A stretch of DNA of 64,000 nucleotides from Mizuhopecten yessoensis (taxonomy: Eukaryota), in assembly GCF_002113885.1 (NCBI RefSeq), contig NW_018407093.1, positions 453,296 to 517,295 of the forward strand, written 5' to 3'. A model generated the notes under the pieces. That model was not told where the DNA came from. It saw only the letters and a program-made list of their open reading frames with translations, and did not search any database. Both the position numbers and the translations under genes were made by a program. This document shows positions 4,931 to 57,087 of the stretch, piece by piece. Within the stretch, counting starts at the first letter, position 1. The number at the start of each line of letters is the position of its first letter.

Positions 4931-5396
4931 AACACCAGAATGGTACTTTGTGGTTTACTTGGCAGTGTTACTGATGTTGTTCTATGGGAAAGTAAACAAA
5001 TTGCTATTCTGTTAAGTAGTATATAATATAATTGACATTGTTACTTATGTTACCATTTCTACGAGAGCCGTGCTACTGGTGTTGTTTTTGGAATTTAGTA
5101 AACATCATATTTGTGTTTTGTGGTACTTGGCAAGAATGTTGATGTTTCTTGTTCCTTGGGAAGTAAACAAGTCGGTACTTTGTTAAATAGTTTACAGTGT
5201 GTAATTGACATAATGTTACTTATGTTTGTGTTTCTAATGCATCAATGTTACCGATGTTTTTTCTCAGAAAAGTAAACATCAGATTAGAATTTTAAGGTAT
5301 ATTTGGTATATATCATTAATGTTTCCATTCTTTTGGAAAAATATTACAGATTGGTATTTTGTGATACACCTGTATGTTAGTGATATTTCCAATATC

Positions 5397-7746
5397 AGCC
5401 TGACAATGCTGTAACACACGGCTACCATGGTAACAGTCTGACAATGCTGTAACACACGGCTACAATGGTAACAGCCTGACAATGCTGTAACACACAGCTA
5501 CGATGGTAACAGTCTGACAATGCTGTAACACGCAGCTACCATGGTAACAGTCTGACAATGCTGTAATACACGGCTACGATGGTAACAGCCTGCGATGCTG
5601 TAACACACGGCTACCATGGTAACAACCCGATAATGTTGTAACACATGGATACCATGGTAACAACCTGAAAATGATGTAACACACGGCTACCATAGTAACA
5701 ACCTGACCATGCTGTAACACACGGCTACCATGGTAATAACCTGATTATGCTGTAACACATGGATACCATAGTAACAACCTGACAATGTTGTAACACACGT
5801 ATACCATAGTAACACACAGCTACCATGGTAACAGTCTGACAATGCTTTAACACACAGCTACCATGGTAACAGTCTGACCATGCTGTAACACACAGCTACC
5901 ATGGTAACCGTCTGACAATGCTGTAACACACGGCTACCATGGGAACAGTCTGACAATGCTGTAACACACGGCTTCGATGGTAACAGCCTGCGATGCTGTA
6001 ACACACGGCTACCATGGTAATAACCTGATTATGCTGTAACACATGGATACCATAGTAACAACCTGACCATGCTGTAACACACGACTACCTGCTGTAACAC
6101 ACAGCTACCATGGTAACAACCTGACAATGCTGTAACACAAGGCTACCATGGTAACAATCTGACAATGCTGTAAACCAGGTCTACCATAGTAACATCCTGA
6201 CACTGCTGTAACTCAGGGATACCATGGTAACAACCTGACAATGATGTAACACGCGGCTACCATAGTAACAACCTGACCATGCTGTAACACACAGATACCA
6301 TGGTAACAGTCTGACAATGCTGTAACACTCAGCTACCATGGTATCAGTCTGACAATGCTATAACACACAGCTACCATAGTAACAGTCTGACAATGCTATA
6401 ACACACAGCTACCATAGTAACAGTCTGACAATGCTATAACACACAGCTACCATGGTATCAGCCTGACAATGCTATAACACACAGCTACCATGGGACCAGT
6501 CTGACAATGCTGTAACACACAGCTACCATAGTAACAACCTGACCATGCTGTAACACACAGATACCATGGTAACAGTCTGACAATGCTGTAATACACGGCT
6601 ACGATGGTAACAGCCTGCGATGCTGTAACACACGGCTACCATGGGAACAGTCTGACAATGCTGTAACACACGGCTTCGATGGTAACAGCCTGCGATGCTG
6701 TAACACACGGCTACCATGGTAACAGCCTAACAATGCTGTAACACACAGCTACCATGGTAACAGTCTGACCATGCTGTAACACACAGCTACCATGGTAACA
6801 GTCTGACCATGCTGTAACACACAGCTACCATGGTAACAGTCTGACAATGCTATAAAACACAGCTACCATGGTAACAGTCTGACAATGCTGTAACACGCAG
6901 CTACCATGGTAACAGTCTGACAATGCTGTGACACACGGCTACAATGGTAACAGCCTGACAATGCTTTAACACACAGCTACCATGGTAACAGTCTGACAAG
7001 GCTGTAACACACAGCTACCATGGTAACAGTCTGACCATGCTGTAACACACAGCTACCATGGTAACCGTCTGACAATGCTGTAACACACGGCTATGATGGT
7101 AACAGCCTGCGATGCTGTAACACACGGCTACCATGGGAACAGTCTGACAATGCTGTAACACACGGCTTCGATGGTAACAGCCTGCGATGCTGTAACACAC
7201 GGCTACCATGGGAACAGTCTGACAATGCTGTAACACACGGCTATGATGGTAACAGCCTGCGATGCTGTAACACACGGCTACCATGGGAACAGTCTGACAA
7301 TGCTGTAACACACGGCTATGATGGTAACAGCCTGCGATGCTGTAACACACGGCTACCATGGTTACAACCTGACAATGCTGTAACACACGGCTACCATAGT
7401 AACAACCTGACCATGCTGTAACACACGGCTACCATTGTAACAACCTGATTATGCTGTAACACACGGCTACCATAGTAACATCCTGACAATGCTGTAACAC
7501 ACGGATACCATAGTAACAACCTGACAATGCTGTAACACACGGCTACCATGGTAATAACCTGATTATGCTGTAACACATGGATACCATAGTAACAACCTGA
7601 CCATGCTGTAACACACGGCTACCATGGTAACAACCTGATGATGCTGTAACACATGGATACCATAGTAACAACCTGACAATGTTGTAACACACGGATACCA
7701 TAGTAACAACCTGACCATGCTGTAACACACGACTACCATGGTAACA
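5397..7746. repeat. 38-bp minisatellite (ctgacaatgctgtaacacacggctaccatggtaacagt)n
   Basis: About 60 copies, each with an internal palindrome taccatggta; variant sub-blocks recur. Confidence 0.95.
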
Positions 7747-8589
7747 GGTGTGCAGACATTATACGTTTCATTCTTGTTTACATAAGAGTTTTGGAAATTC
7801 TTTGCATTTTGTGATAATTTCCGGTTAACTGTTTGCTGCCTTGGTAGATGACCCAGCGGGTTGTGTTTGTGTAGTGTAGAGGGAGGCTCTTGATTACTCT
7901 GACTACAGGTAGACGTAGCACACCCTGTCTGAATGATGAGCGCTCCGTCAGACACCTGATTGCCCAGCCCAGGAGAAAGTGGTTTCTTCCAAAGATTGGA
8001 TTATATTTCAATCTTGGAAATGCTTTATACGTTTTAAGTAATTCAACAGAAAACTGTCTCATCGCCTTGGAAGTGTAATTTAAAAATCAAGAAAACGGTA
8101 AATCATTTGAAGTGATTTTACACAATTGACATGACACTGTGAAAAACCATTAAGCTGCTTTTCACTCAAAACTCGGCTGGGGAGTTTCCCTTCAGCTCAA
8201 TCAACAGTGCGCAGGACTAGTAATCTGTAGAAGTTCTGGGTTCATGAGCCTCTAGCAGAGCTGAGCACTTAGATTTTAAAGTAAAGATGAAATTTTTTAC
8301 CAAGTGGTACAACAAAAATAATGTGATTCTCTGTAAAAACAACAGGAAATAACATTGTTACGCTTTAAAAACCAAGCTGGAGATATCAGAACCAGAAATG
8401 TCAGTTGATGTTGAATTTGGAACTGATTGGTTTTCAAATCTACATGTCTGACGTTGTCAATTTCAATAAAGACAGGATCGACAGAGAAGGAATATCATGT
8501 AGGAATTGATACCTGTATGTTAATGTGTTTTATACCACCAACCTAATCATAGTGTAAAAATTCTTGGACAAGTGATGAACTGTTTAGAC

Positions 8590-14439: not shown

Positions 14440-17400
14440 GCGTAAAATATTGGGCACTTAGTGTGTAAAATACTAGGCACTTAGTGTGTAAAATACTAGG
14501 CACTTAGTGTGTAAAATACTGGGAGCTGAGAGTGTAAAATACTGGGCACTGAGTGTGTAAACTACTGGGCACTGAGTGTGTAAACTACTGGGCACTGAGT
14601 GTGTAAAATACTGGGCACTGAGTGTGTAAAATACTGGGCACTGAGTGTGTAAAATACTGGGCACTGAGTGTGTAAAATACTGGGCACTGAGTGTGTAAAA
14701 TACTGGGCACTGAGTGTGTAAAATACTGGGCACTGAGTGTGTAAAATACTGGGCACTGAGTGTGTAAAATACTGGGCACTGAGTGTGTAAAATACTGGGC
14801 ACTGAGTGTGTAAAATACTGGGCACTGAGTGTGTAAAATACTGGGCACTGAGTGTGTAAAATACTGGGCACTGAGTGTGTAAAATACTGGGCACTGAGTG
14901 TGTAAAATACTGGGCACTGAGTGTGTAAAATACTGGGCACTGAGTGTGTAAAATACTGGGCACTGAGTGTGTAAAATACTGGGCACTGAGTGTGTAAAAT
15001 ACTGGGCACTGAGTGTGTAAAATACTGGGCACTGAGTGTGTAAAATACTGGGCACTGAGTGTGTAAAATACTGGGCACTGAGTGTGTAAAATACTGGGCA
15101 CTGAGTGTGTAAAATACTGGGCACTGAGTGTGTAAAATACTGGGCACTGAGTGTGTAAAATACTGGGCACTGAGTGTGTAAAATACTGGGCACTGAGTGT
15201 GTAAAATACTGGGCACTGAGTGTGTAAAATACTGGGCACTGAGTGTGTAAAATACTGGGCACTGAGTGTGTAAAATACTGGGCACTGAGTGTGTAAAATA
15301 CTGGGCACTGAGTGTGTAAAATACTGGGCACTGAGTGTGTAAAATACTGGGCACTGAGTGTGTAAAATACTGGGCACTGAGTGTGTAAAATACTGGGCAC
15401 TGAGTGTGTAAAATACTGGGCACTGAGTGTGTAAAATACTGGGCACTGAGTGTGTAAAATACTGGGCACTGAGTGTGTAAAATACTGGGCACTGAGTGTG
15501 TAAAATACTGGGCACTGAGTGTGTAAAATACTGGGCACTGAGTGTGTAAAATACTGGGCACTGAGTGTGTAAACTACTGGGCACTGAGTGTGTAAACTAC
15601 TGGGCACTGAGTGTGTAAAATACTGGGCACTGAGTGTGTAAAATACTGGGCACTGAGTGTGTAAAATACTGGGCACTGAGTGTGTAAAATACTGGGCACT
15701 GAGTGTGTAAAATACTGGGCACTGAGTGTGTAAAATACTGGGCACTGAGTGTGTAAAATACTGGGCACTGAGTGTGTAAAATACTGGGCACTGAGTGTGT
15801 AAAATACTGGGCACTGAGTGTGTAAAATACTGGGCACTGAGTGTGTAAAATACTGGGCACTGAGTGTGTAAAATACTGGGCACTGAGTGTGTAAAATACT
15901 GGGCACTGAGTGTGTAAAATACTGGGCACTGAGTGTGTAAAATACTGGGCACTGAGTGTGTAAAATACTGGGCACTGAGTGTGTAAAATACTGGGCACTG
16001 AGTGTGTAAAATACTGGGCACTGAGTGTGTAAAATACTGGGCACTGAGTGTGTAAAATACTGGGCACTGAGTGTGTAAAATACTGGGCACTGAGTGTGTA
16101 AAATACTGGGCACTGAGTGTGTAAAATACTGGGCACTGAGTGTGTAAAATACTGGGCACTGAGTGTGTAAAATACTGGGCACTGAGTGTGTAAAATACTG
16201 GGCACTGAGTGTGTAAAATACTGGGCACTGAGTGTGTAAAATACTGGGCACTGAGTGTGTAAAATACTGGGCACTGAGTGTGTAAAATACTGGGCACTGA
16301 GTGTGTAAAATACTGGGCACTGAGTGTGTAAAATACTGGGCACTGAGTGTGTAAAATACTGGGCACTGAGTGTGTAAAATACTGGGCACTGAGTGTGTAA
16401 AATACTGGGCACTGAGTGTGTAAAATACTGGGCACTGAGTGTGTAAAATACTGGGCACTGAGTGTGTAAAATACTGGGCACTGAGTGTGTAAAATACTGG
16501 GCACTGAGTGTGTAAAATACTGGGCACTGAGTGTGTAAAATACTGGGCACTGAGTGTGTAAAATACTGGGCACTGAGTGTGTAAAATACTGGGCACTGAG
16601 TGTGTAAAATACTGGGCACTGAGTGTGTAAAATACTGGGCACTGAGTGTGTAAAATACTGGGCACTGAGTGTGTAAAATACTGGGCACTGAGTGTGTAAA
16701 ATACTGGGCACTGAGTGTGTAAAATACTGGGCACTGAGTGTGTAAAATACTGGGCACTGAGTGTGTAAAATACTGGGCACTGAGTGTGTAAAATACTGGG
16801 CACTGAGTGTGTAAAATACTGGGCACTGAGTGTGTAAAATACTGGGCACTGAGTGTGTAAAATACTGGGCACTGAGTGTGTAAAATACTGGGCACTGAGT
16901 GTGTAAAATACTGGGCACTGAGTGTGTAAAATACTGGGCACTGAGTGTGTAAAATACTGGGCACTGAGTGTGTAAAATACTGGGCACTGAGTGTGTAAAA
17001 TACTGGGCACTGAGTGTGTAAAATACTGGGCACTGAGTGTGTAAAATACTGGGCACTGAGTGTGTAAAATACTGGGCACTGAGTGTGTAAAATACTGGGC
17101 ACTGAGTGTGTAAAATACTGGGCACTGAGTGTGTAAAATACTGGGCACTGAGTGTGTAAAATACTGGGCACTGAGTGTGTAAAATACTGGGCACTGAGTG
17201 TGTAAAATACTGGGCACTGAGTGTGTAAAATACTGGGCACTGAGTGTGTAAAATACTGGGCACTGAGTGTGTAAAATACTGGGCACTGAGTGTGTAAAAT
17301 ACTGGGCACTGAGTGTGTAAAATACTGGGCACTGAGTGTGTAAAATACTGGGCACTGAGTGTGTAAAATACTGGGCACTGAGTGTGTAAAATACTGGGCA

Positions 17401-20130
17401 CTGAGTGTGTAAAATACTGGGCACTGAGTGTGTAAAATACTGGGCACTGAGTGTGTAAAATACTGGGCACTGAGTGTGTAAAATACTGGGCACTGAGTGT
17501 GTAAAATACTGGGCACTGAGTGTGTAAAATACTGGGCACTGAGTGTGTAAAATACTGGGCACTGAGTGTGTAAAATACTGGGCACTGAGTGTGTAAAATA
17601 CTGGGCACTGAGTGTGTAAAATACTGGGCACTGAGTGTGTAAAATACTGGGCACTGAGTGTGTAAAATACTGGGCACTGAGTGTGTAAAATACTGGGCAC
17701 TGAGTGTGTAAAATACTGGGCACTGAGTGTGTAAAATACTGGGCACTGAGTGTGTAAAATACTGGGCACTGAGTGTGTAAAATACTGGGCACTGAGTGTG
17801 TAAAATACTGGGCACTGAGTGTGTAAAATACTGGGCACTGAGTGTGTAAAATACTGGGCACTGAGTGTGTAAAATACTGGGCACTGAGTGTGTAAAATAC
17901 TGGGCACTGAGTGTGTAAAATACTGGGCACTGAGTGTGTAAAATACTGGGCACTGAGTGTGTAAAATACTGGGCACTGAGTGTGTAAAATACTGGGCACT
18001 GAGTGTGTAAAATACTGGGCACTGAGTGTGTAAAATACTGGGCACTGAGTGTGTAAAATACTGGGCACTGAGTGTGTAAAATACTGGAAGCTGAGAGTGT
18101 AAAATACTTGACACTGAGTGTGTAAAATACTGGGCACTGGGCACTGAGTGTGTAAAATACTGGGCGCTGAGTGTGTAAAATACTGGGCACTGAGTGTGTA
18201 ATCTGAGTGTGTAAAATACTGGAAGCTGAGAGTGTAAAATACTTGACACTGAGTGTGTATACTGGGCACTGAGTGTGTAAAATACTGGGCACAGAGTGTG
18301 TAAAATACTGGGCACTGAGTGTGTAATAGGCGTTCAGGGTGTAAACTATTGGGCGCTGAGAGTATTGGGCACTGAGTGTGTAAAATACTGGGCACTGTGG
18401 GTGTAAAATACTGGGAGCTGAGTGTGTAAAATACTGGGAGTTGAGAGTGTAAAATACTGGGGGCTGAGTGTGTGAAATACTGGGCACTGAGTGTGTAAAA
18501 TACTGGGAGTTGAGAGTGTAAAATACTGGGAGCTGAGTGTGTAAAATACTGGGAGTTGAGAGTGTAAAATACTGGGAGCTGAGTGTGTGAAATACTGGGC
18601 ACTGAGTGTGTAAAATACTGGGAGCTGAGAGTGTAAAATACTGGGAGCTGAGAGTGTAAAATATTGGGCACTGAGTGTGTAAAATACTGGGCACTGTGGG
18701 TGTAAAATACTGGGAGCTGAGTGTGTAAAATACTGGGAGTTGAGAGTGTAAAATACTGGGAGCTGAGAGTGTAAAATATTGGGCACTGAGTGTGTAAAAT
18801 ACTGGGAGCTGAGTGTGTAAAATACTGGGCTCTGAGTGTGTAAAATACTGGGCACTGGGCACTGAGGGTGTAAAATACTGGGCACTGAGTGTGTAATAGG
18901 CGTTCAGGGTGTAAACTATTGGGCGCTGAGAGTATTGGGCACTGAGTGTGTAAAATACTGGGCACTGTGTGTGTAAAATACTGGGCACTGAGTATGTAAA
19001 ATACTGGGCACTGAGTGTGTAAAATACTGGAAGCTGAGAGGGTAAAATACTTGACACTGAGAGTGTAAAATACTGGGCACTGGGCACTGAGTTTGTAAAA
19101 TATTGGGCACCGAGTGTGTAAAATACTGGGCACTGAGTGTGTAATCTGAGTGTGTAAAATACTGGAAGCTGAGAGTGTAAAATACTTGACACTGAGTGTG
19201 TATACTGGGCACTGAGTGTGTAAAATACTGGGCACTAAGTGTGTAAAATACTGGGCACTGAGTGTGTAAAATAATGGGCACTGAGTGTGTAAAATACTGG
19301 GCACTGGACACTGAGTGTGTAAGATACTGGGCACTGAGTGTGTAAAATACTGGGCACAGAGTGTGTAAAATACTGGGCACTGAGTGTGTAAAAGACTGGG
19401 CACTGAGTGTGTAAAATACTGGGCACTAAGTGTGTAAAATACTGGGCACTGGGCACTGCAGTGTGTAAAATACTGGGCACTGAGTGTGTAAAATCCTGGG
19501 CACTGAGTGTGTACAATACTGGGCACTGAGTGTGTAAAATCCTGGGCACTGAGTGTGTACAATACTGGGCACTGAGTGGGTAAAATACTGGGCACTGAGT
19601 GTGTAATAGGCGTTCAGGGTGTAAACTATTGGGCGCTGAGAGTATTGGGCACTGAGTGTGTAAAATACTGGGCACTGGGCACTGAGGGTGTAAAATACTG
19701 GGCACTGAGTGTGTAATAGGCGTTCAGGGTGTAAACTATTGGGCGCTGAGAGTATTGGGCACTGAGTGTGTAAAATACTGGGCACTGTGGGTGTAAAATA
19801 CTGGGAGCTGAGTGTGTAAAATACTGGGAGTTGAGAGTGTAAAATACTGGGAGCTGAGAGTGTAAAATACTGGGAGCTGAGAGTGTAAAATATTGGGCAC
19901 TGAGTGTGTAAAATACTGGGCACTGAGTGTGTAAAATACTGGGCACTGAGTGTGTAATAGGCGTTCAGGGTGTAAACTATTGGGCGCTGAGAGTGTAAAA
20001 TAATAGGCGTTCAGGGTGTAAAATAATGGGTGCTGAGAGTGTAAAATATTAGGCGTTCAGGGTGTAAACTATGGGGCGCTGAGTGTGTAAAATATGGGAC
20101 GCTCTAGAGAGTGTAAAATTGTGCTAACAG
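14440..20130. repeat. 23-bp satellite array (gtgtgtaaaatactgggcactga)n
   Basis: Near-perfect from ~14.5 to 18.08 kb, degenerate with higher-order blocks from 18.08 to 20.1 kb; explains the 1535-, 1332- and 913-aa minus-strand ORFs. Confidence 0.98.
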
Positions 20131-37029: not shown

Positions 37030-38615
37030 AGCCCTGGGGAAGGAACCTTATTCTGATGGTGTGTGAGGGAGGGTGATCCCTGGGGTAGGAACTTCATCCT
37101 GATGGTGTGTGAGGGAGGGGGACCCCTGGGGAAGGAACCTTATTCTGGTGGTGTGTGAGGGAGGGTGATCCCTGGGGTCGGAACTTCATCCTGATGGTGT
37201 GTGAGGGAGGGTGTCCCTTGGGGTAGGAACCTTATTCTGATAGTGTGTGGGGGAGGGTGACCCTTGGGGTAGGAACCTCATTCTGTTGGTGTGTGAGGGA
37301 GGGTGACCCTTGGGGAAGGAACCTTATTCTGATGGTGTTTGAGGGAGGGTGACCCCTGGGGTAGGACCCTCATTCTGATGGTGTGTGAGGGAGTGTGACC
37401 CTTGGGGAAGGAACCTTATTCTGATGGTGTGTGAGGGAGGGTGTCCCTTGGGGTAGGAACCTTATTCTGATAGTGTGTGGGGGAGGGTGACCCTTGGGGT
37501 AGGACCCTTATTCTGATGGTGTGTGGGGCAGGGTGACCCCTGGGGTAGGAACCTAATTCTGATGGTGTGTGAGGGAGGGTGACCCCTGGGGAAGAAACCT
37601 TATTCTGATGGTGTGTGAGGGAGGGTGAGCCCTGGGGTAAAACCTCATTTTGATGGGGTGTGAGGGAGGGTGACCCTTGGGGTAGGACCCTTATTCTGAT
37701 GGTGTGTGGGGCAGGGTGACCCCTGGGGTAGGAACATCATTCTGTTGGTGTGTGAGGGAGGGTGACCCTTGGGGAAGGAACCTTATTCTGATGGTGTTTG
37801 AGGGAGGGTGACCCCTGGGGTAAAACCTCATTTTGCTGGTGTGTGAGGGCGGGTGACCCCTGGGGTAGGACCCTCATTCTGATGGTGTGTGAGGGAGTGT
37901 GACCCTTGGGGAAGGAACCTTATGCTGATGGTGTGTGAGGGAGGGTGTCCCTTGGGGTAGGAACCTTATTCTGATGGTATGTGAGGGAGGGTGATCCCTG
38001 GGGTCGGAACTTCATCCTGATGGTGTGTGAGGGAGGGGGACCCCTGGGGAAGGAACCTTATTCTGATGGTGTGTGAGGGAGGGCGATCCCTGGGGTAGGA
38101 ACTTCATCCTAATGGTGTGTGAGGGAGGGTGTCCCCTGGGGTAGGAACCTTATTCTGATAGTGTGTGGGGGAGGGTGACCCTTGGGGTAGGACCCTTATT
38201 CTGATGGTGTGTGGGGTAGGGTGACCCCTGGGGTAGGAACCTTATTCTGCTGGTATGTGAGGGAGGGTGACCCCTGGGGTAAAACCTCATTTTGATGGTG
38301 TGTGAGGGAGGGTGAGCCCTGGGGTAGGAACCTTATTCTGATGGTATGTGAGGGAGGGTGATCCCTGGGGTAGGAACTTCATCCTAATGGTGTGTGAGGG
38401 AGGGTGACCCCTGGGGAAGGAACCTTATTCTGATGGTGTTTGAGGGAGGGTGACCCCTGGGGTAGGAACCTCATTCTGTTGGTGTGTGAGGGAGATTGAA
38501 CCCTGGGGTAGGATGATGATGTAATAGGGAGTGGCCCAAATTCCTGGGGTAGGATAATGATTTGTGGTGAGATCATTGATGTGTGAGGGAGGGGATCGAC
38601 CCCTGGAGTAGGATG
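37030..38615. repeat. 46-bp minisatellite (gacccctggggtaggaaccttattctgatggtgtgtgagggagggt)n
   Basis: About 33 copies, decaying at the right end. Confidence 0.95.
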
Positions 38616-40451: not shown

Positions 40452-41700
40452 CAACTTACCCAACCCCTCCCGAACCTTACCCAACCCCTCCAAAACCTTA
40501 TCCAACCCCTCCATAACCTTACCCAACCCCTCCCGAACCTTACCCAACCCCTCCCGAACCTTACCCAACCATTCCCGAACCTTACCCAACCCCTCCAAAA
40601 CCTTCCCCAACCCCTCCAAAACCTTACCCAACCCCTCCCGAACCTTACCCAACCCCTCCAAAACCTTACCCAACCCCTCCAGAACCTTACCCAACCCCTC
40701 CAGAACCTTACCCAACCCCACCATAACCTTACCCAACCCCTCCAAAACCTTACCCAACCCCTCCAAAACCTTACCCAGCCCCTCCAAAACCTTCCCCAAC
40801 CCCTCCAAAACCTTACCCAACCCCTCCATAACCTTACCCAACCCCTCCAGAGCTTTACCAAACCCCTCCATAACCTTACCCATCCCCTCCAGAACTTTAC
40901 CTAACCCCTCCACAACCTTCCCCAACCCCTCCAGAACCTTCCCCAACCCCTCCGGAACCTTACCCAACCCCTCCAGAACCTTACCCAAACCCTCCAGAAC
41001 CTTCCCCAACCCCTCCATAACCTTACCCAACCCCTCCAAAACCTTACCCAACCCCTCCAAAGCCTTACCCAACCCCTCCAAAACCTTCCCCACCCCCTCC
41101 AAAACCTTACCCAACCCCTCCAAAACCTTACTCAACCCCTCCCGAACCTTACCCAACCCCTCCAAAACCTTACCCAACCCCACCATAACCTTACCCAACC
41201 CCTCCAAAACCTTCCCCAACCCCTCCAAAACCTTACCCAACCCCTCCAGAACCTTACCAAAACCCTCCAGAACCTTACCCAACCCCTCCAGAACCTTCCC
41301 CAACCCCTCCAGAACCTTACCCAACCCCACCATAACCTTCCCCCACCCCTCCAAAACCTTACCCAACCCCTCCAAAACCTTCCCCAACCCCTCCCGAACC
41401 TTACCCAACCCCTCCCGAACCTTACCCAACCCCTCCAAAACCTTACCCAACCCCTCCATAACCTTACCCAACCCCTCCAGAACCTTACCAAAACCCTCCA
41501 TAACCTTACCCAACCCCTCCAGAGCTTTACCAAACCCCTCCATAACCTTACCCAACCCCTCCAGAACTTTACCTAACCCCTCCACAACCTTACCCAACCC
41601 CTCCAGAACCTTACCCAACCCCTCCGGAACCTTACCCAACCCCTCCAGAACCTTACCCAACCCCTCCAGAACCTTACCCAACCCCTCCGGAACCTTACCC
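40452..41700. repeat. 21-bp minisatellite (accttacccaacccctccaga)n
   Basis: About 59 copies; produces 437-aa heptad ORFs on both strands. Confidence 0.95.
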
Positions 41701-41927
41701 ATGTTTACCTGTGTTAAGGTTCTCTCGATATAGACAATAGCACAAAACATTTGTCTGGTCAGTTTTCTGTTTTATTTCTACCAGCTTTGAATCACTAACA
41801 TTCATTTGACCTTCGTCCACTGATGAGTCCTAAATGGACAAAATGGACATAAAGGTGTCGTAAATATTTTCTTTGTTTGGCTATTTTTTGTCAACAAAGT
41901 AACTCTAAATAGGAGCCTGTATATCTA

Positions 41928-52650: not shown

Positions 52651-54552
52651 AGAGGTATTAAGGGAAGGTAGATGGTGTATGCTAGGTGTAAAGGAGAGGT
52701 ATTGTTTATGCTGACAGGTTTGTGATGTGTATTTAGCCTAGTAGGTGTCTACACATGTTTGACGTGTACCTGCGTGATACAAGCCATGTAGACCAGCCAT
52801 ATAACATGGTGCTCCAACATTCCCCTGTGTTTCTAGCCTATATACCTTCCACTGCACACTGTTTGTAGGTTAGGTCAAAGGTCACACATGTGGTTGTGTT
52901 TTGGTAATGGGTGACATACTTTGCAATGGCAGCTGAGTGGGGGTCTGAAAGGGTAACATTTACTTGTGTTTCTCTTTAAAAGACAAAAAAAAACACACTT
53001 AAAATTTGTTTTTTTAAATAGGCATCATTGATACTTACAACAACTCATAAAGCCATTGGCGATCACCATGTTGATATTTTGACAGTGAGCAAAAGGTGAA
53101 ATGCATAAAGACTATCAATATATACATACTGATAAGAAGTTTTTTTAGGGGATTCCCTCTGAAGTACGTTCGCTGTTGCATGTATATTTGGTTTAATGTT
53201 GACGCAAAAGCTAAAGTCATGTGATGGATATTATATACGTATTACATTGGTCAGTGTGCAGACCTACATATATTCTTTATCACACAAGGCATGCTCTGTA
53301 CATGTACAGCGTACAAAAATACGTTATAGGGCAGTTATGTGTGCTTAGGAATGTTGGTAACAATTTAATTCTATTTCTTGTCTAGCTTACAGTGAGTTTG
53401 AGAGCAACTTTTCAGCAAAAATTATAAAATAAAATGTAAATTTTCCAAAAGAATTTTTTTTCAGTGACTTTGTTCCAGTTTGTAAGATCTATATACAAGT
53501 TTATTTATCAGAAAACAAAAAAAACAGCAGTGAGTTTGGTGAAGTTTGAAGTCAGTTACAATGAATTCTGTCTAGAATCTCTTAAAAACAATCAAGTTTC
53601 AGGTAAACATATGGTGACAAAAACTCAGAAAATGTCCACCTTGAAATTTATGCTTAAATGTATAATATATATCTCCCACTGCCTTGTAAGGCTGTATGAT
53701 GATTGATGTTCAGAGCGAACAAAACGTCTAGATTATATTTCTGTTTAGATACACTGACAGAGTATACCTGTAGAAATATGAAGGCTGTGGTGCATGAAAA
53801 TGTAATTAACTACAGGTGTATCTGAATTCTGAAATTGCTTATTTACATTTTACAGAAAGTAGACCTATATCATCTCAAGGGTATTATCCTTATATCATAC
53901 AGGGCGTTTTTTATTGATGTTTATTACAACTTTCTGTTGTCTTAAGGGGGTTAGCTACCTTTATGTTTGAGTTACCTCCCTTGAGATAGGTGAACTATCT
54001 AGTCACTTGTTACAGTGTCTTGGCTATAGAGAAAACCCTTTCAGTTCTTTCGATAGAGCTGTGGAGTAATCTCTAGTCCGAGGGACTTTTTTGATGGGCC
54101 TGAGTGTTAACTCAATGTATACTGTGTACATGTGTCTTAAGAGAGGAACTCTTTTTAAACGGAGGTGTGAATGTAGCAATACATGAACATCTTTAAATAA
54201 TATTTCTTGAACATGTACCATATTAACATTAACTAATGCAAAACTAATGTCAGCAAGGTATTACATACTTAAATAACTTATTTTCTGTGAAACAGTCAAT
54301 CAAAACATTTCACAATCAAAGACCATGCATCTGTAAACAATGATACGAAACCTCTGAAAGTTTTATTGTGTCATCCACAGCCCTAGGGTTACAAGTACAT
54401 AACTTGTGATAATCTTAATATCAAATCAAAACTGGATGTGCCAACTACTCTATGCATGGCCTGAGGACCAACTAGCCATATGTATGCTGCAATATAGTCT
54501 CACAGCTCGTAAATTTGGCTTTTTGTTATGAATGATCGTCATACTAGGCTAG

Positions 54553-54707
54553 TGTAATAGGACGAGAAATAGTGATAAAGATAGTGGTCGTTGGGGTTCA
54601 AACCCGCGACCCTTGGCTCTCTAGCCCGATGCTCTACCACTGAGCTAAAGGGAAATTCCCTACAGCTGACGCTTGCAAGGCAACCTAATTAATCCACATC
54701 TTTTACA
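54553..54707 (-). mobile_element. Solo-LTR-like element containing a tRNA-like sequence (Helenus-type TRIM LTR)
   Basis: TGTAA...TTACA termini; 4-bp TSD CTAG (54549-54552, 54708-54711). Minus strand reads TAGCTCAGTGGTAGAGC (A box/D-arm) ... GGGTTTGAACCC (B box/T-arm). Confidence 0.8.
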
Positions 54708-57087
54708 CTAGTCTATATTAAGGAAGCTAGGAGACTCAATTTTGGTACCTTATCCAGCATTTCTCAAGCATTTTCCTAGAAACTTAATTAATTGATTTAC
54801 ATAGAACTGATTGGCTAAACTCTGTGGCGTTTATTCTCACTATTGTATTGTCATGGGATCATTGTATGTGCGTTTGAATGCGTCGTTAGAGCCATACCTT
54901 TTTCTCCCTTATAGTCAATTTAAGGAGAGTCACTTCCGGCTGGATGATTCACTGCAGGTGGCCTTAAAGTCAATGTCTTCTTTAATATTGCTACATCAGC
55001 ATTTATGAATGTAATTAATATGGCGATAAAAATAACTTTGAGTTTGAAGTCAAAGTTCAGTAACAATTAGCGGTCTTAACGGGCACAGGAGAGGTGTAAC
55101 AGTATGTATACCTGTGTAGTCTTACGTGTGAGACCAGCACTGTGTGTGGGTGTTTATGATATATGTATTATAGAGTTACACCTTACTGATATATAAATGA
55201 GACGCACCTCCTGGGCCGATTCATTCGTACTCAACAAGAAACAGGAAAATTTCGGAAAAAATGTCCCACAATTTTTTTGATTTAAAACACTTAAACTAAA
55301 CATTTAACCTGTAAACACGGAGGGTTGATGAGGGTATACACATTTATGAGCTTGGAGATTTTTAAGGCCCACATAATCAAAATGGCTTGGGATTTATACA
55401 CAGGGGTACATGTTTACATAAAGGTCAGGATTTAAAGTGAGGATCAGGCTTTTGATGGCAGAAAGGAATGTTACCTTGTATATATGGCTGTTTTGATGTC
55501 TCTCATACATATTGTTTGAAAACACAAAACAGAAAAATCAGATAATTTTAAATGAACTTGATACTGTTATACGTGTAATTTAGTTCCAGAAACTGTTAGT
55601 TTATACAGTTTTATTTAAACACTGCCCTCATATCTCGTAACTGTCTTTGAGGTGTACTGTCAATTATGAGAGCCTGCCGGTCTGGAACGTCATATAACTG
55701 AAACAAAAGTTTAAAAACACCCAAGTCACAGCACATGATCTTAACAATGTAATTAATATTGTCTGTCACATGGCTTTATTAACTTAAAAGTCTGAAAGTG
55801 TTTTGACCAGGTTCACATTTTGGAGATTTCATAATTATGAATATTTGTTCTGATATTGTCCATTCAGGGATTTGTTTTCAAAAGGCATTGAAACAAAGAT
55901 GGCCAAAACTGATGTGGATGAAATGATTGAGAAGGTTGAACAAGTCATTTCAAGTTAATTATTTAAAGACTGAACAAATAATAAAATTTCATCTGTCCCG
56001 TTTGCTTGAATCTTATTTACAGCAAAAGAAAAGTCACACAATACACAGTTATTTCCTGACATTAAAACACTAGTTATGAGTGCAGTTGTACTTATTTTCG
56101 AAACTCTTTTGTTCGATACCTCTGATGGTTTATCTGTGAACAAGTATACCACAGTTCCCTGATAAAGATTTGCCAGTGGCCCGAATAGGTTGATTATTTA
56201 TAAGGTCAATTGAATTTAAGTTCCTAATGGTGTCACTTTAACATGTTCAGGAGTTTCAGGTCCTATGCTGTATGTGGCAGATGGTTTTAATCAGATTATG
56301 AGCCTGGAATTGTACTAAAAGATGGAAACTGAAAATCTTATTCTCCACGTTAATTCTGTATGACAGTATATATCTAAACCTGACAATACAATCTTGTCCT
56401 GTCAGCCGCAAAAAATCTAATCAATATCTATTTCCTGTCGGTGGTTTGACAGGCTTTAACAAAAAATCTAATTGTTAACTGATTAGCCAGAAACTGTTAA
56501 AGATATCCTGTGTCTAAATGATCAGCGCTTACCTGTGGAATGAAAACGAATACCACAGAACGTTTGTCAAAGTTTGACGGTTTGTATTCAAAGTGACAAT
56601 ACATGAGGGGGAGTGATGTCCCTTATTTAGCTCGAAATTCTAAAGAATAGCAAATCTCTTTCAATTTTTTTTTTAAAAGAAACTTTTCCATACAGGAAAT
56701 CTGTTCTTTTTTTTTGGTCAATAGATTTACTGGTGTATGTGTGGGTATATAGTGATGTTGACAAGAGGGCTCTAAGTCAGTAGTGTAAGGATAGTGCGTG
56801 TCCGGGACACCTGGCTGGTCCCTTTGTTACGCTATCAATGGTATTATCTACGGATCTCAGTCAGTTGTAGATTTTTTTACTGATTTTATTGTGTTTCCTG
56901 TAAGTAAAACATGCCACTCACTCGCCTGATACAATAGAACATCAGTTCCTGAGCTTCTCTCGTAAAGAGACCTCACTTCACTTCATAAAGAATAAACATG
57001 CACGCTGAAGTCAGCAGTGGTTTAATTTGACACATTTAACTCAAAACTTTAAAATGCAATTGCTGCACGTACTTCCAAGTTTACAAA

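What the first reader, a model, noticed from the sequence alone, without database searches (positions are those of the whole stretch)
54549..54711. Solo LTR carrying an internal tRNA-like Pol III promoter (Helenus-type TRIM)
Seen: a 155-bp element with retroviral-style TGTAA...TTACA ends and an exact 4-bp TSD (CTAG). On the minus strand it holds a tRNA-like segment (D-arm GCTC-AGTGGTA-GAGC, T-arm GGG-TTTGAA-CCC) placed internally rather than at the 5' end, with no acceptor stem and no SINE-type tail. Known: integrase-mediated insertions have TG..CA ends and short fixed TSDs; Cassandra TRIMs carry 5S RNA in their LTRs; as I recall, the recently described Helenus TRIMs carry tRNA-like LTRs and make 4-bp TSDs in animals. 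Inference: this is a solo LTR of a Pol III-driven non-autonomous LTR element that pipelines would mislabel as a SINE or tRNA pseudogene. It may be an uncatalogued family.
Basis: partly seen in the sequence, partly recalled or inferred. Interest (0 to 1): 0.7.

Follow-up and report, generated by a model that had tools for sequence, protein, structure and literature searches.

The report
Known scallop Helenus-4 retrotransposon solo LTR
This 155-base piece is the leftover end of a tiny, already catalogued scallop jumping gene (Helenus-4_MiYe), whose tRNA-like core likely served as its promoter; it is one old and likely silent copy among at least 131, so it is ordinary, although the family shows a predicted, apparently undescribed two-part grip on its tRNA primer.

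Summary
In detail: a 155-bp TG..CA element (54553-54707) between CTAG repeats, with tRNA-like box A and box B on the minus strand. It is a solo LTR of a multi-copy TRIM. The genome has 131 exact LTR-end matches. Two-LTR copies carry a tRNA-His primer site, a polypurine tract and a 94-bp middle. Of 74 scorable insertions, 64 have 4-bp duplications (45 perfect) and 5 have perfect 5-bp ones. The family is not new. It is Helenus-4_MiYe of Kojima 2024 (PMC10886601, Data S1 and Table S1), 148 of 157 letters identical by eye. This copy has lost the conserved box B cytosine, the family looks old, and Pol III transcription could not be tested. Side result, not found in that paper's text: the middle holds a second 12-base match to the primer tRNA's T-arm. 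It differs between His- and Lys-primed families, like the split primer sites of Ty1 and Ty3. Two aberrant copies with proper duplications carry a tRNA-type primer site, which points to tRNA-His-primed reverse transcription. Verdict: already known, low interest.

The parts
54553..54707 (-). Solo LTR of TRIM family Helenus-4_MiYe (155 bp; published LTR 157 bp). Sense strand is the window's minus strand, set by the PBS and PPT of two-LTR copies.
   Evidence: 7 substitutions and one 2-bp deletion against the majority letters of 126 aligned LTRs.
54549..54552 (.). Target-site duplication CTAG, left copy
   Evidence: family TSD counts.
54708..54711 (.). Target-site duplication CTAG, right copy
54636..54647 (-). 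Pol III box A (TAGCTCAGTGGT) inside a tRNA D-arm; intact
   Evidence: the motif TRGCTNAGYGG is present in 74 of 126 LTRs.
54594..54604 (-). Pol III box B, mutated (GGTTTGAACCC; C to T at 54600)
   Evidence: 113 of 126 LTRs have C there; an intact GTTCRANNC stands in 98 of 126.
54591..54649 (-). tRNA-like segment without a paired acceptor stem
   Evidence: Rfam tRNA, 20.2 bits, below gathering, model 6-65 of 71; no ARAGORN call.
54647..54660 (-). Short inverted repeat GGGAA-T-TTCCC followed by TTT, directly before box A (the last T is the first base of box A); possible start/end (R) signal, untested
   Evidence: different palindromes stand at the same place in many bivalve Helenus consensus LTRs (read by eye).

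Best explanation
The 155-bp piece is a solo LTR of the published scallop TRIM family Helenus-4_MiYe, likely left behind when the two LTRs of a 408-bp inserted element recombined, and it is likely a silent, decaying copy. How the family works: RNA polymerase III would transcribe it from the tRNA-derived box A and box B in the 5' LTR (inferred). A Gypsy-type helper would package the RNA (inferred; helper not found). Host tRNA-His primes reverse transcription at the PBS (supported by complementarity and by two copies with a tRNA-type PBS), probably with a second contact to the tRNA T-arm (predicted). The PPT primes the second strand (anatomy shown, role from established LTR biology). An integrase inserts the DNA at a palindromic ATA-NWWN-TAT preference with a 4-bp, now and then 5-bp, duplication (pattern shown). 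LTR-LTR recombination gives solo LTRs and unequal exchange gives tandem arrays (products shown, process inferred).
For: Five of five short motifs from the element and its relatives hit Helenus-4_MiYe-LTR or -I in Data S1; four hit nothing else. Table S1 gives LTR 157, internal 94, total 408, TSD 4; my copies have a 157-column majority LTR and a modal internal length of 94 (22 of 59). The nine places where the window copy departs from the majority are, by eye, the places where it departs from the published consensus. Exact matches in G000: 131 for a 29-base LTR end and 80 for a 24-base internal motif, controls 0. Among 101 distinct insertions: 47 single LTRs, 40 two-LTR, 9 with three or four LTRs, 5 single LTRs still joined to internal sequence. 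TSDs in 74 scorable: 43 perfect 4-bp, 2 more in TA runs, 19 with one mismatch, 5 perfect 5-bp, 1 5-bp with one mismatch, 4 none. The PBS is complementary to this genome's tRNA-His, as in the paper's Fig. S2. L154 and L155 carry 16 bases of perfect tRNA complement where the family has 9 + bulge + 4, and both sit between 4-bp repeats. Old family: two LTRs of one element differ by 8.6% on average (23 pairs, minimum 3.2%), close to random pairs at 9.9%.
Against: No empty-site allele was seen in three DNA runs. Pol III transcription was not shown: only contigs were on offer, and the RNA contigs carry copies with unrelated flanks, as passengers would. Box A and box B are no better conserved among genomic copies than the rest of the LTR (non-CpG divergence 0.078 and 0.060 against 0.050-0.065). 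No coding helper was found among 10 His-PBS loci read over 10 kb; one gave only a weak Ty3-capsid hit below the cut-off (E 0.0009). This copy's flanks (AGA, CCT) fit the target preference only in part. Identity to the published consensus was read by eye, not computed.
Confidence: 0.96

Rival explanations
1. It is a tRNA-derived SINE or a tRNA pseudogene, and the TG..CA ends and 4-bp repeat are chance.
For: A weak Rfam tRNA match with box A and box B; 47 of 101 insertions are single units.
Against: Fixed ends (TG..CA in 70 of 74 scorable, partly by the way scorable was defined), fixed short duplications, no tail, the tRNA part in mid-element, and 49 of 101 insertions in LTR-internal-LTR form; palindromic target preference.
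Confidence: 0.01
2. It is a MITE-like DNA transposon with short terminal inverted repeats (TGTAA/TTACA).
For: The ends are a 5-bp inverted repeat and the duplication is short.
Against: The unit occurs as direct repeats around a PBS and PPT; tRNA-type PBS copies point to reverse transcription.
Confidence: 0.01
3. The family is right, but this copy was inserted as a one-LTR unit or is a still-working Pol III gene rather than a silent recombination product.
For: Box A is intact. L155 shows that odd, shortened DNAs were integrated with a proper 4-bp repeat. The copy is present in individuals from three studies.
Against: Box B has lost its conserved C (effect on TFIIIC binding recalled, not tested). 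Divergence from the majority (4.5%) is average for the family (mean 5.3%). Solo LTRs with TSDs are the usual recombination product.
Confidence: 0.05

Closest known systems
Helenus-4_MiYe (Kojima 2024, PMC10886601; family from the scallop Mizuhopecten yessoensis)
   Same: Same LTR (148 of 157 letters, by eye), same 94-bp internal region, tRNA-His PBS, PPT and 4-bp TSD.
   Different: This copy is a 155-bp solo LTR with a mutated box B. My sample adds 5 perfect 5-bp TSDs in 74, tandem arrays, a palindromic target preference and a second tRNA contact. A term search of the paper's main text finds no 'bipartite', 'hairpin' or 'palindrom'; its figures were not seen.
Helenus-2_MiYe, Helenus-3/4/5_PeMa, Helenus-4_ArIr (scallop sister families)
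   Same: Share GGGAATTTCCCTTT before box A, a His PBS and the GAACCTGGGTTG motif.
   Different: Other LTR sequence and other internal hairpins; they account for cross-matching contigs.
Cassandra and Ajax TRIMs (TRIMp3)
   Same: A small-RNA-derived Pol III promoter inside the LTR; tandem arrays.
   Different: 5S rRNA-derived; Ajax has 5-bp TSDs; only Cassandra has shown Pol III transcription.
Ty1 and Ty3 bipartite primer-binding sites (review PMC4974528, passages)
   Same: A short acceptor-stem PBS helped by downstream segments that pair with the primer's T-arm.
   Different: Autonomous yeast elements, tRNA-iMet, tested by mutation; here non-autonomous, tRNA-His, prediction only.
biv-TRIM (Satovic et al. 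2019, PMC6934838; abstract and section 5)
   Same: Bivalve TRIM with solo TDRs, tandem repeats and an internal hairpin.
   Different: 202-218 bp TDRs, 77-80 bp inner domain, no clear PBS; not compared by sequence here.

Membership tests
Helenus (TRIMp3) | Two LTRs around a short non-coding internal region, total under about 1 kb | tested here: met
   40 two-LTR insertions of 101; modal internal length 94 bp. A few 'two-LTR' rows have one partial LTR.
Helenus (TRIMp3) | tRNA-derived box A and box B inside the LTR | tested here: met
   box A in 74, box B in 98, both in 57 of 126 LTRs; box B is mutated in this copy.
Helenus (TRIMp3) | PBS complementary to a host tRNA 3' end | tested here: met
   Nine perfect bases, a bulge and four more against the genome's tRNA-His plus CCA; TGGTGCCG in place in 23 of 43 internal regions.
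Helenus (TRIMp3) | Polypurine tract abutting the 3' LTR | tested here: met
   A-run, G-run, AATAG directly before the TG in the internal regions.
Helenus (TRIMp3) | 4-bp TSD in animals | tested here: met
   45 perfect and 19 one-mismatch 4-bp repeats in 74; 5 perfect 5-bp exceptions.
Helenus (TRIMp3) | Transcription by RNA polymerase III | not testable with these tools
   Only assembled contigs were available; also unvalidated in the paper.
Helenus (TRIMp3) | Mobilisation by a Gypsy helper with the same primer | tested here: inconclusive
   44 genome matches to a 15-base His motif, 30 read, 10 extended to 10 kb; no pol gene found, one weak Ty3-capsid hit.
Helenus-4_MiYe | Sequence identity to the published LTR and internal consensus | tested here: met
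   Motif look-ups in Data S1 and by-eye comparison, 148 of 157; lengths match Table S1.
tRNA-derived SINE | tRNA head at the 5' end, simple-repeat tail, variable-length TSD | tested here: not met
Functional tRNA gene | Complete cloverleaf with acceptor stem | tested here: not met

The most novel reading that the evidence does not exclude
Bivalve Helenus TRIMs grip their primer tRNA through a split primer-binding site: a short acceptor-end segment plus a second segment that pairs with the T-arm and variable loop, with a spacer or hairpin looped out. The second segment tracks the primer (GAACCTGGGTTG for tRNA-His; AACCCACG, and in some families an anticodon-arm match, for tRNA-Lys). That would make a 94-base internal region a minimal natural model of Ty1/Ty3-style primer capture, and it may explain how these elements get into a helper's particle without sharing LTRs. 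A covarying palindrome plus TTT before box A may mark the transcript's start and end.
Probability: 0.55. Interest if true: 0.4.

Novelty: already known. Interest (0 to 1): 0.2.

Why it matters
The finding itself matters little: it is one old copy of a published family. It is a reminder that such LTRs can pass for SINEs or tRNA pseudogenes in annotation. The side results add mechanism where the original paper had only consensus sequences: sequence evidence that tRNA-His primed reverse transcription, an integrase-type palindromic target preference with about 7% 5-bp duplications, and a predicted split primer site. If that site is real, it gives a short, testable answer to a question the paper leaves open, namely how a TRIM without LTR likeness depends on its helper.

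Tried and rejected
Empty-site allele: none in three DNA runs from three studies; flank contigs run into the LTR on both sides (contigs drop rare variants, so this is no proof of fixation). Transcription: four RNA or RNA-guessed runs, contigs only, hold element sequence with unrelated flanks and cannot show strand, start or polymerase (X13 also). Helper search: 10 loci chosen by me from 30 read (of 44 matches); ORFs were GPCRs, repeats or nothing, with one sub-threshold Ty3-capsid hit at L145; none of the four candidates checked had the second-site motif within 400 bases of the PBS. Folding: the LTR folds only modestly better than shuffles (z -2.2, -1.5, -1.9) and the internal hairpin does not beat shuffles (z -0.74, 0.22, 0.26), so the hairpin rests on by-eye covariation alone. 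A subfamily (27 of 126 LTRs ending ACTACA) does not explain the 5-bp TSDs: 0 of 17 against 5 of 57. The idea that the strand is free of Pol III terminators is only partly borne out: T4 is in 2 of 43 internal regions but in 27 of 126 LTRs. GGGAATTTCCC resembles a recalled NF-kB site; set aside because other families have different palindromes at the same place. Literature searches for a split PBS in TRIMs or Helenus found only Ty1/Ty3 reviews, nothing, and the original paper with brief citing mentions. Earlier scan notes held nothing on this family.

Full report
Observation. The window holds a 155-bp element at 54553-54707 that starts TGTAA and ends TTACA, with CTAG on both sides. On the minus strand a D-arm (54645-54631) and a T-arm remnant (54605-54594) lie in mid-element. 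ARAGORN calls no tRNA in the window. Rfam gives a sub-threshold tRNA match at 54591-54649 over model positions 6-65 of 71 (20.2 bits against 29, E 0.54). The surroundings are AT-rich and rich in tandem repeats; I did not establish whether the site lies in a gene.

Family structure. A DNA search of G000 listed 62 matches from 40 scored of 1585 candidates. Exact patterns gave 131 LTR ends and 80 internal motifs, with 0 in the reversed controls; at about 5% divergence per copy the true number is probably several hundred (inference). From 113 fetched loci I found 101 distinct insertions: 47 single LTRs, 40 two-LTR, 8 three-LTR, 1 four-LTR and 5 single LTRs joined to internal sequence (a few multi-LTR rows include a partial LTR). 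Read on the window's minus strand, the LTR is followed by three bases and TGGTGCCGT, and the internal region ends in an A-run and G-run polypurine tract before the next TG. So the tRNA-like promoter is in the sense direction.

Integration signature. I dropped 27 of the 101 insertions (an end missing, internal sequence or N in the flank). Of the 74 left, 43 have a perfect 4-bp repeat, 2 more match inside TA runs, 19 match with one mismatch, 5 have a perfect 5-bp repeat (one in a TA run), 1 has 5 bp with one mismatch and 4 have none. Shuffled flanks give 0.66 perfect 4-bp, 7.4 one-mismatch and 0.14 perfect 5-bp. The 64 4-bp sites show a symmetric preference: A 0.58, T 0.55, A 0.67 before; A or T 0.87 and 0.95 in the middle; T 0.58, A 0.50, T 0.47 after. 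Occasional 5-bp repeats are known for a 4-bp retroviral integrase (1 of 15 sites; PMC2857682, passages), so they need no second helper. In three DNA runs, loose ends with unrelated flanks pile up at 54553 and 54707, and no empty site was seen.

Identity with a published family. Kojima 2024 (PMC10886601) defines Helenus. I read parts 1-5 of 6 of the text and parts 1, 6, 10 and 11 of 11 of the supplement, with three term searches; figures were not seen. All five motifs I looked up hit Helenus-4_MiYe, four of them only there. Table S1 lists LTR 157, internal 94, total 408 and TSD 4, and Fig. S2 files its PBS under tRNA-His. The window copy differs from the majority of 126 aligned LTRs at 7 substitutions and one 2-bp deletion. 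By eye these are the same places at which it differs from the published LTR, giving 148 of 157. The host is therefore very likely the Yesso scallop or a close relative.

State of this copy and age. One substitution hits the conserved C of box B (54600; C in 113 of 126). That such a change cripples TFIIIC binding is recalled, not tested. Copies differ from the majority by 5.3% on average, 13.8% at CpG. The two LTRs of one element differ by 8.6% (23 pairs, 3.2-20.7%), near the 9.9% of random pairs, which fits one old burst (the sample leans towards copies like the query). Box A and box B decay like the rest of the LTR, so genomic copies show no sign of selection. RNA contigs contain the element but cannot show strand, start or polymerase. 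Pol III transcription stays an inference, as the paper itself says.

Priming. The genome's tRNA-His genes pair with the PBS over 9 bases, a bulge and 4 more. A pattern for LTR end plus bulge-free PBS found 3 copies. Two of them, L154 and L155, have 16 bases of perfect tRNA complement followed by a deletion, and each lies between 4-bp repeats (AATG read by eye, TGTA). The third has 13 bases and may be a plain one-base loss. Reverse transcriptase copies the primer's 3' end during plus-strand synthesis (established LTR biology), so these two look like strand-transfer errors fixed at integration. In L154 the join falls inside the second site described next. Three copies with sister-family-like LTRs show 18-20 perfect bases.

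A second tRNA contact (side result). Beyond the PBS, the internal region holds GAACCTGGGTTG, the exact complement of tRNA-His gene bases 44-55 (variable loop and 5' side of the T-arm). It is intact in 23 of 43 internal regions; 2 of 3000 shuffles reach 12 bases; tRNA-Pro gives 5-7. Predicted binding energy is -23.8 kcal/mol against -11.8 +/- 3.5 with that part shuffled (0 of 200 reach it, though the best came to -23.7) and -5.2 with tRNA-Pro. In the supplement, read by eye, 7 of the 11 His-primed bivalve internal regions that I saw (15 are listed) have GAACCTGGG and the other 4 have one-letter variants. Of 18 Lys-primed regions in supplement part 6, none has it; 10 have AACCCAC, which matches the same arm of this genome's tRNA-Lys, 3 have near variants and 5 lack it, 4 of these with a longer PBS. 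Four Lys-primed families also match the anticodon arm. Against: one Pro-primed family keeps GAACCTGG; fish His-primed Helenus have a long PBS and no second site; families are related, so this is one contrast, not many; the hairpin between the two sites does not beat shuffles; the motif could be a relic of a copied tRNA. Ty1 and Ty3 use such split sites (PMC4974528, passages). I found no mention for Helenus in the paper's main text or in searches (PMC12859917 passages); subscription journals and Repbase notes are not covered. biv-TRIM has internal hairpins but no clear PBS (PMC6934838, abstract and section 5).

Helper. No coding partner was found: 10 His-PBS loci read over 10 kb gave only a weak Ty3-capsid hit. 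Gypsy dependence rests on the paper's PBS and TSD argument.

Verdict. Real feature, correctly classed, already known down to the family name. Earlier scan notes held nothing on it. Interest 0.2; the split primer site, at about even odds or a little better, would be worth 0.4.

Noticed in passing
window 54647-54660 (-); bivalve Helenus LTRs in the supplement of PMC10886601: A 9-11-base palindrome followed by TTT sits directly before box A, and its letters covary between families (GGGAATTTCCC, GAGAATTTCTC, GGGTTAACCC, GAAGTACTTC, GGAGATCTCC); a second small hairpin lies just upstream. It may mark the R region or a Pol III start/stop. Read by eye, not counted.
   Followed up: partly
L008, L010, L021, L028, L079: Perfect 5-bp TSDs (5 of 74; 0.14 expected) in a family listed as 4-bp; not tied to the ACTACA subfamily.
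   Followed up: yes
L154:1500 region, L155:1500 region: Shortened Helenus-4 copies with a 16-base tRNA-type PBS and 4-bp repeats; likely plus-strand transfer errors that were integrated.
   Followed up: yes
L123, L131, L137 around 1500: LTRs like Helenus-2_MiYe followed by 18-20 perfect bases of tRNA-His complement; L131 runs on with one mismatch to about 29 bases, as if the primer were copied past its usual stop.
   Followed up: partly
L004, L007, L014, L023: Tandem arrays of 3-4 LTRs at about 250-bp period inside one TSD where flanks could be read; the three LTRs in L023 are identical.
   Followed up: partly
L114/L144, L124/L145, L140/L146: Another LTR family ending CTTTTACA with a perfect 18-base His PBS; L145 has a weak Ty3-capsid hit (E 0.0009). 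Possible decayed helper.
   Followed up: partly
G000:C5519:1322-7883 (L141-L143): tRNA-His genes repeated in tandem at about 1.48-kb spacing.
   Followed up: no
window 14442-20098, 5396-7747, 37032-38513, 40455-41701: Long minisatellite arrays (23, 38, 46 and 21-bp units); they overlap the window's longest open frames and probably account for them.
   Followed up: no
window 53907-54244: One low-depth contig of RNA run X13 covers unique sequence about 300 bp from the element; the site may be intronic or near a transcript.
   Followed up: no
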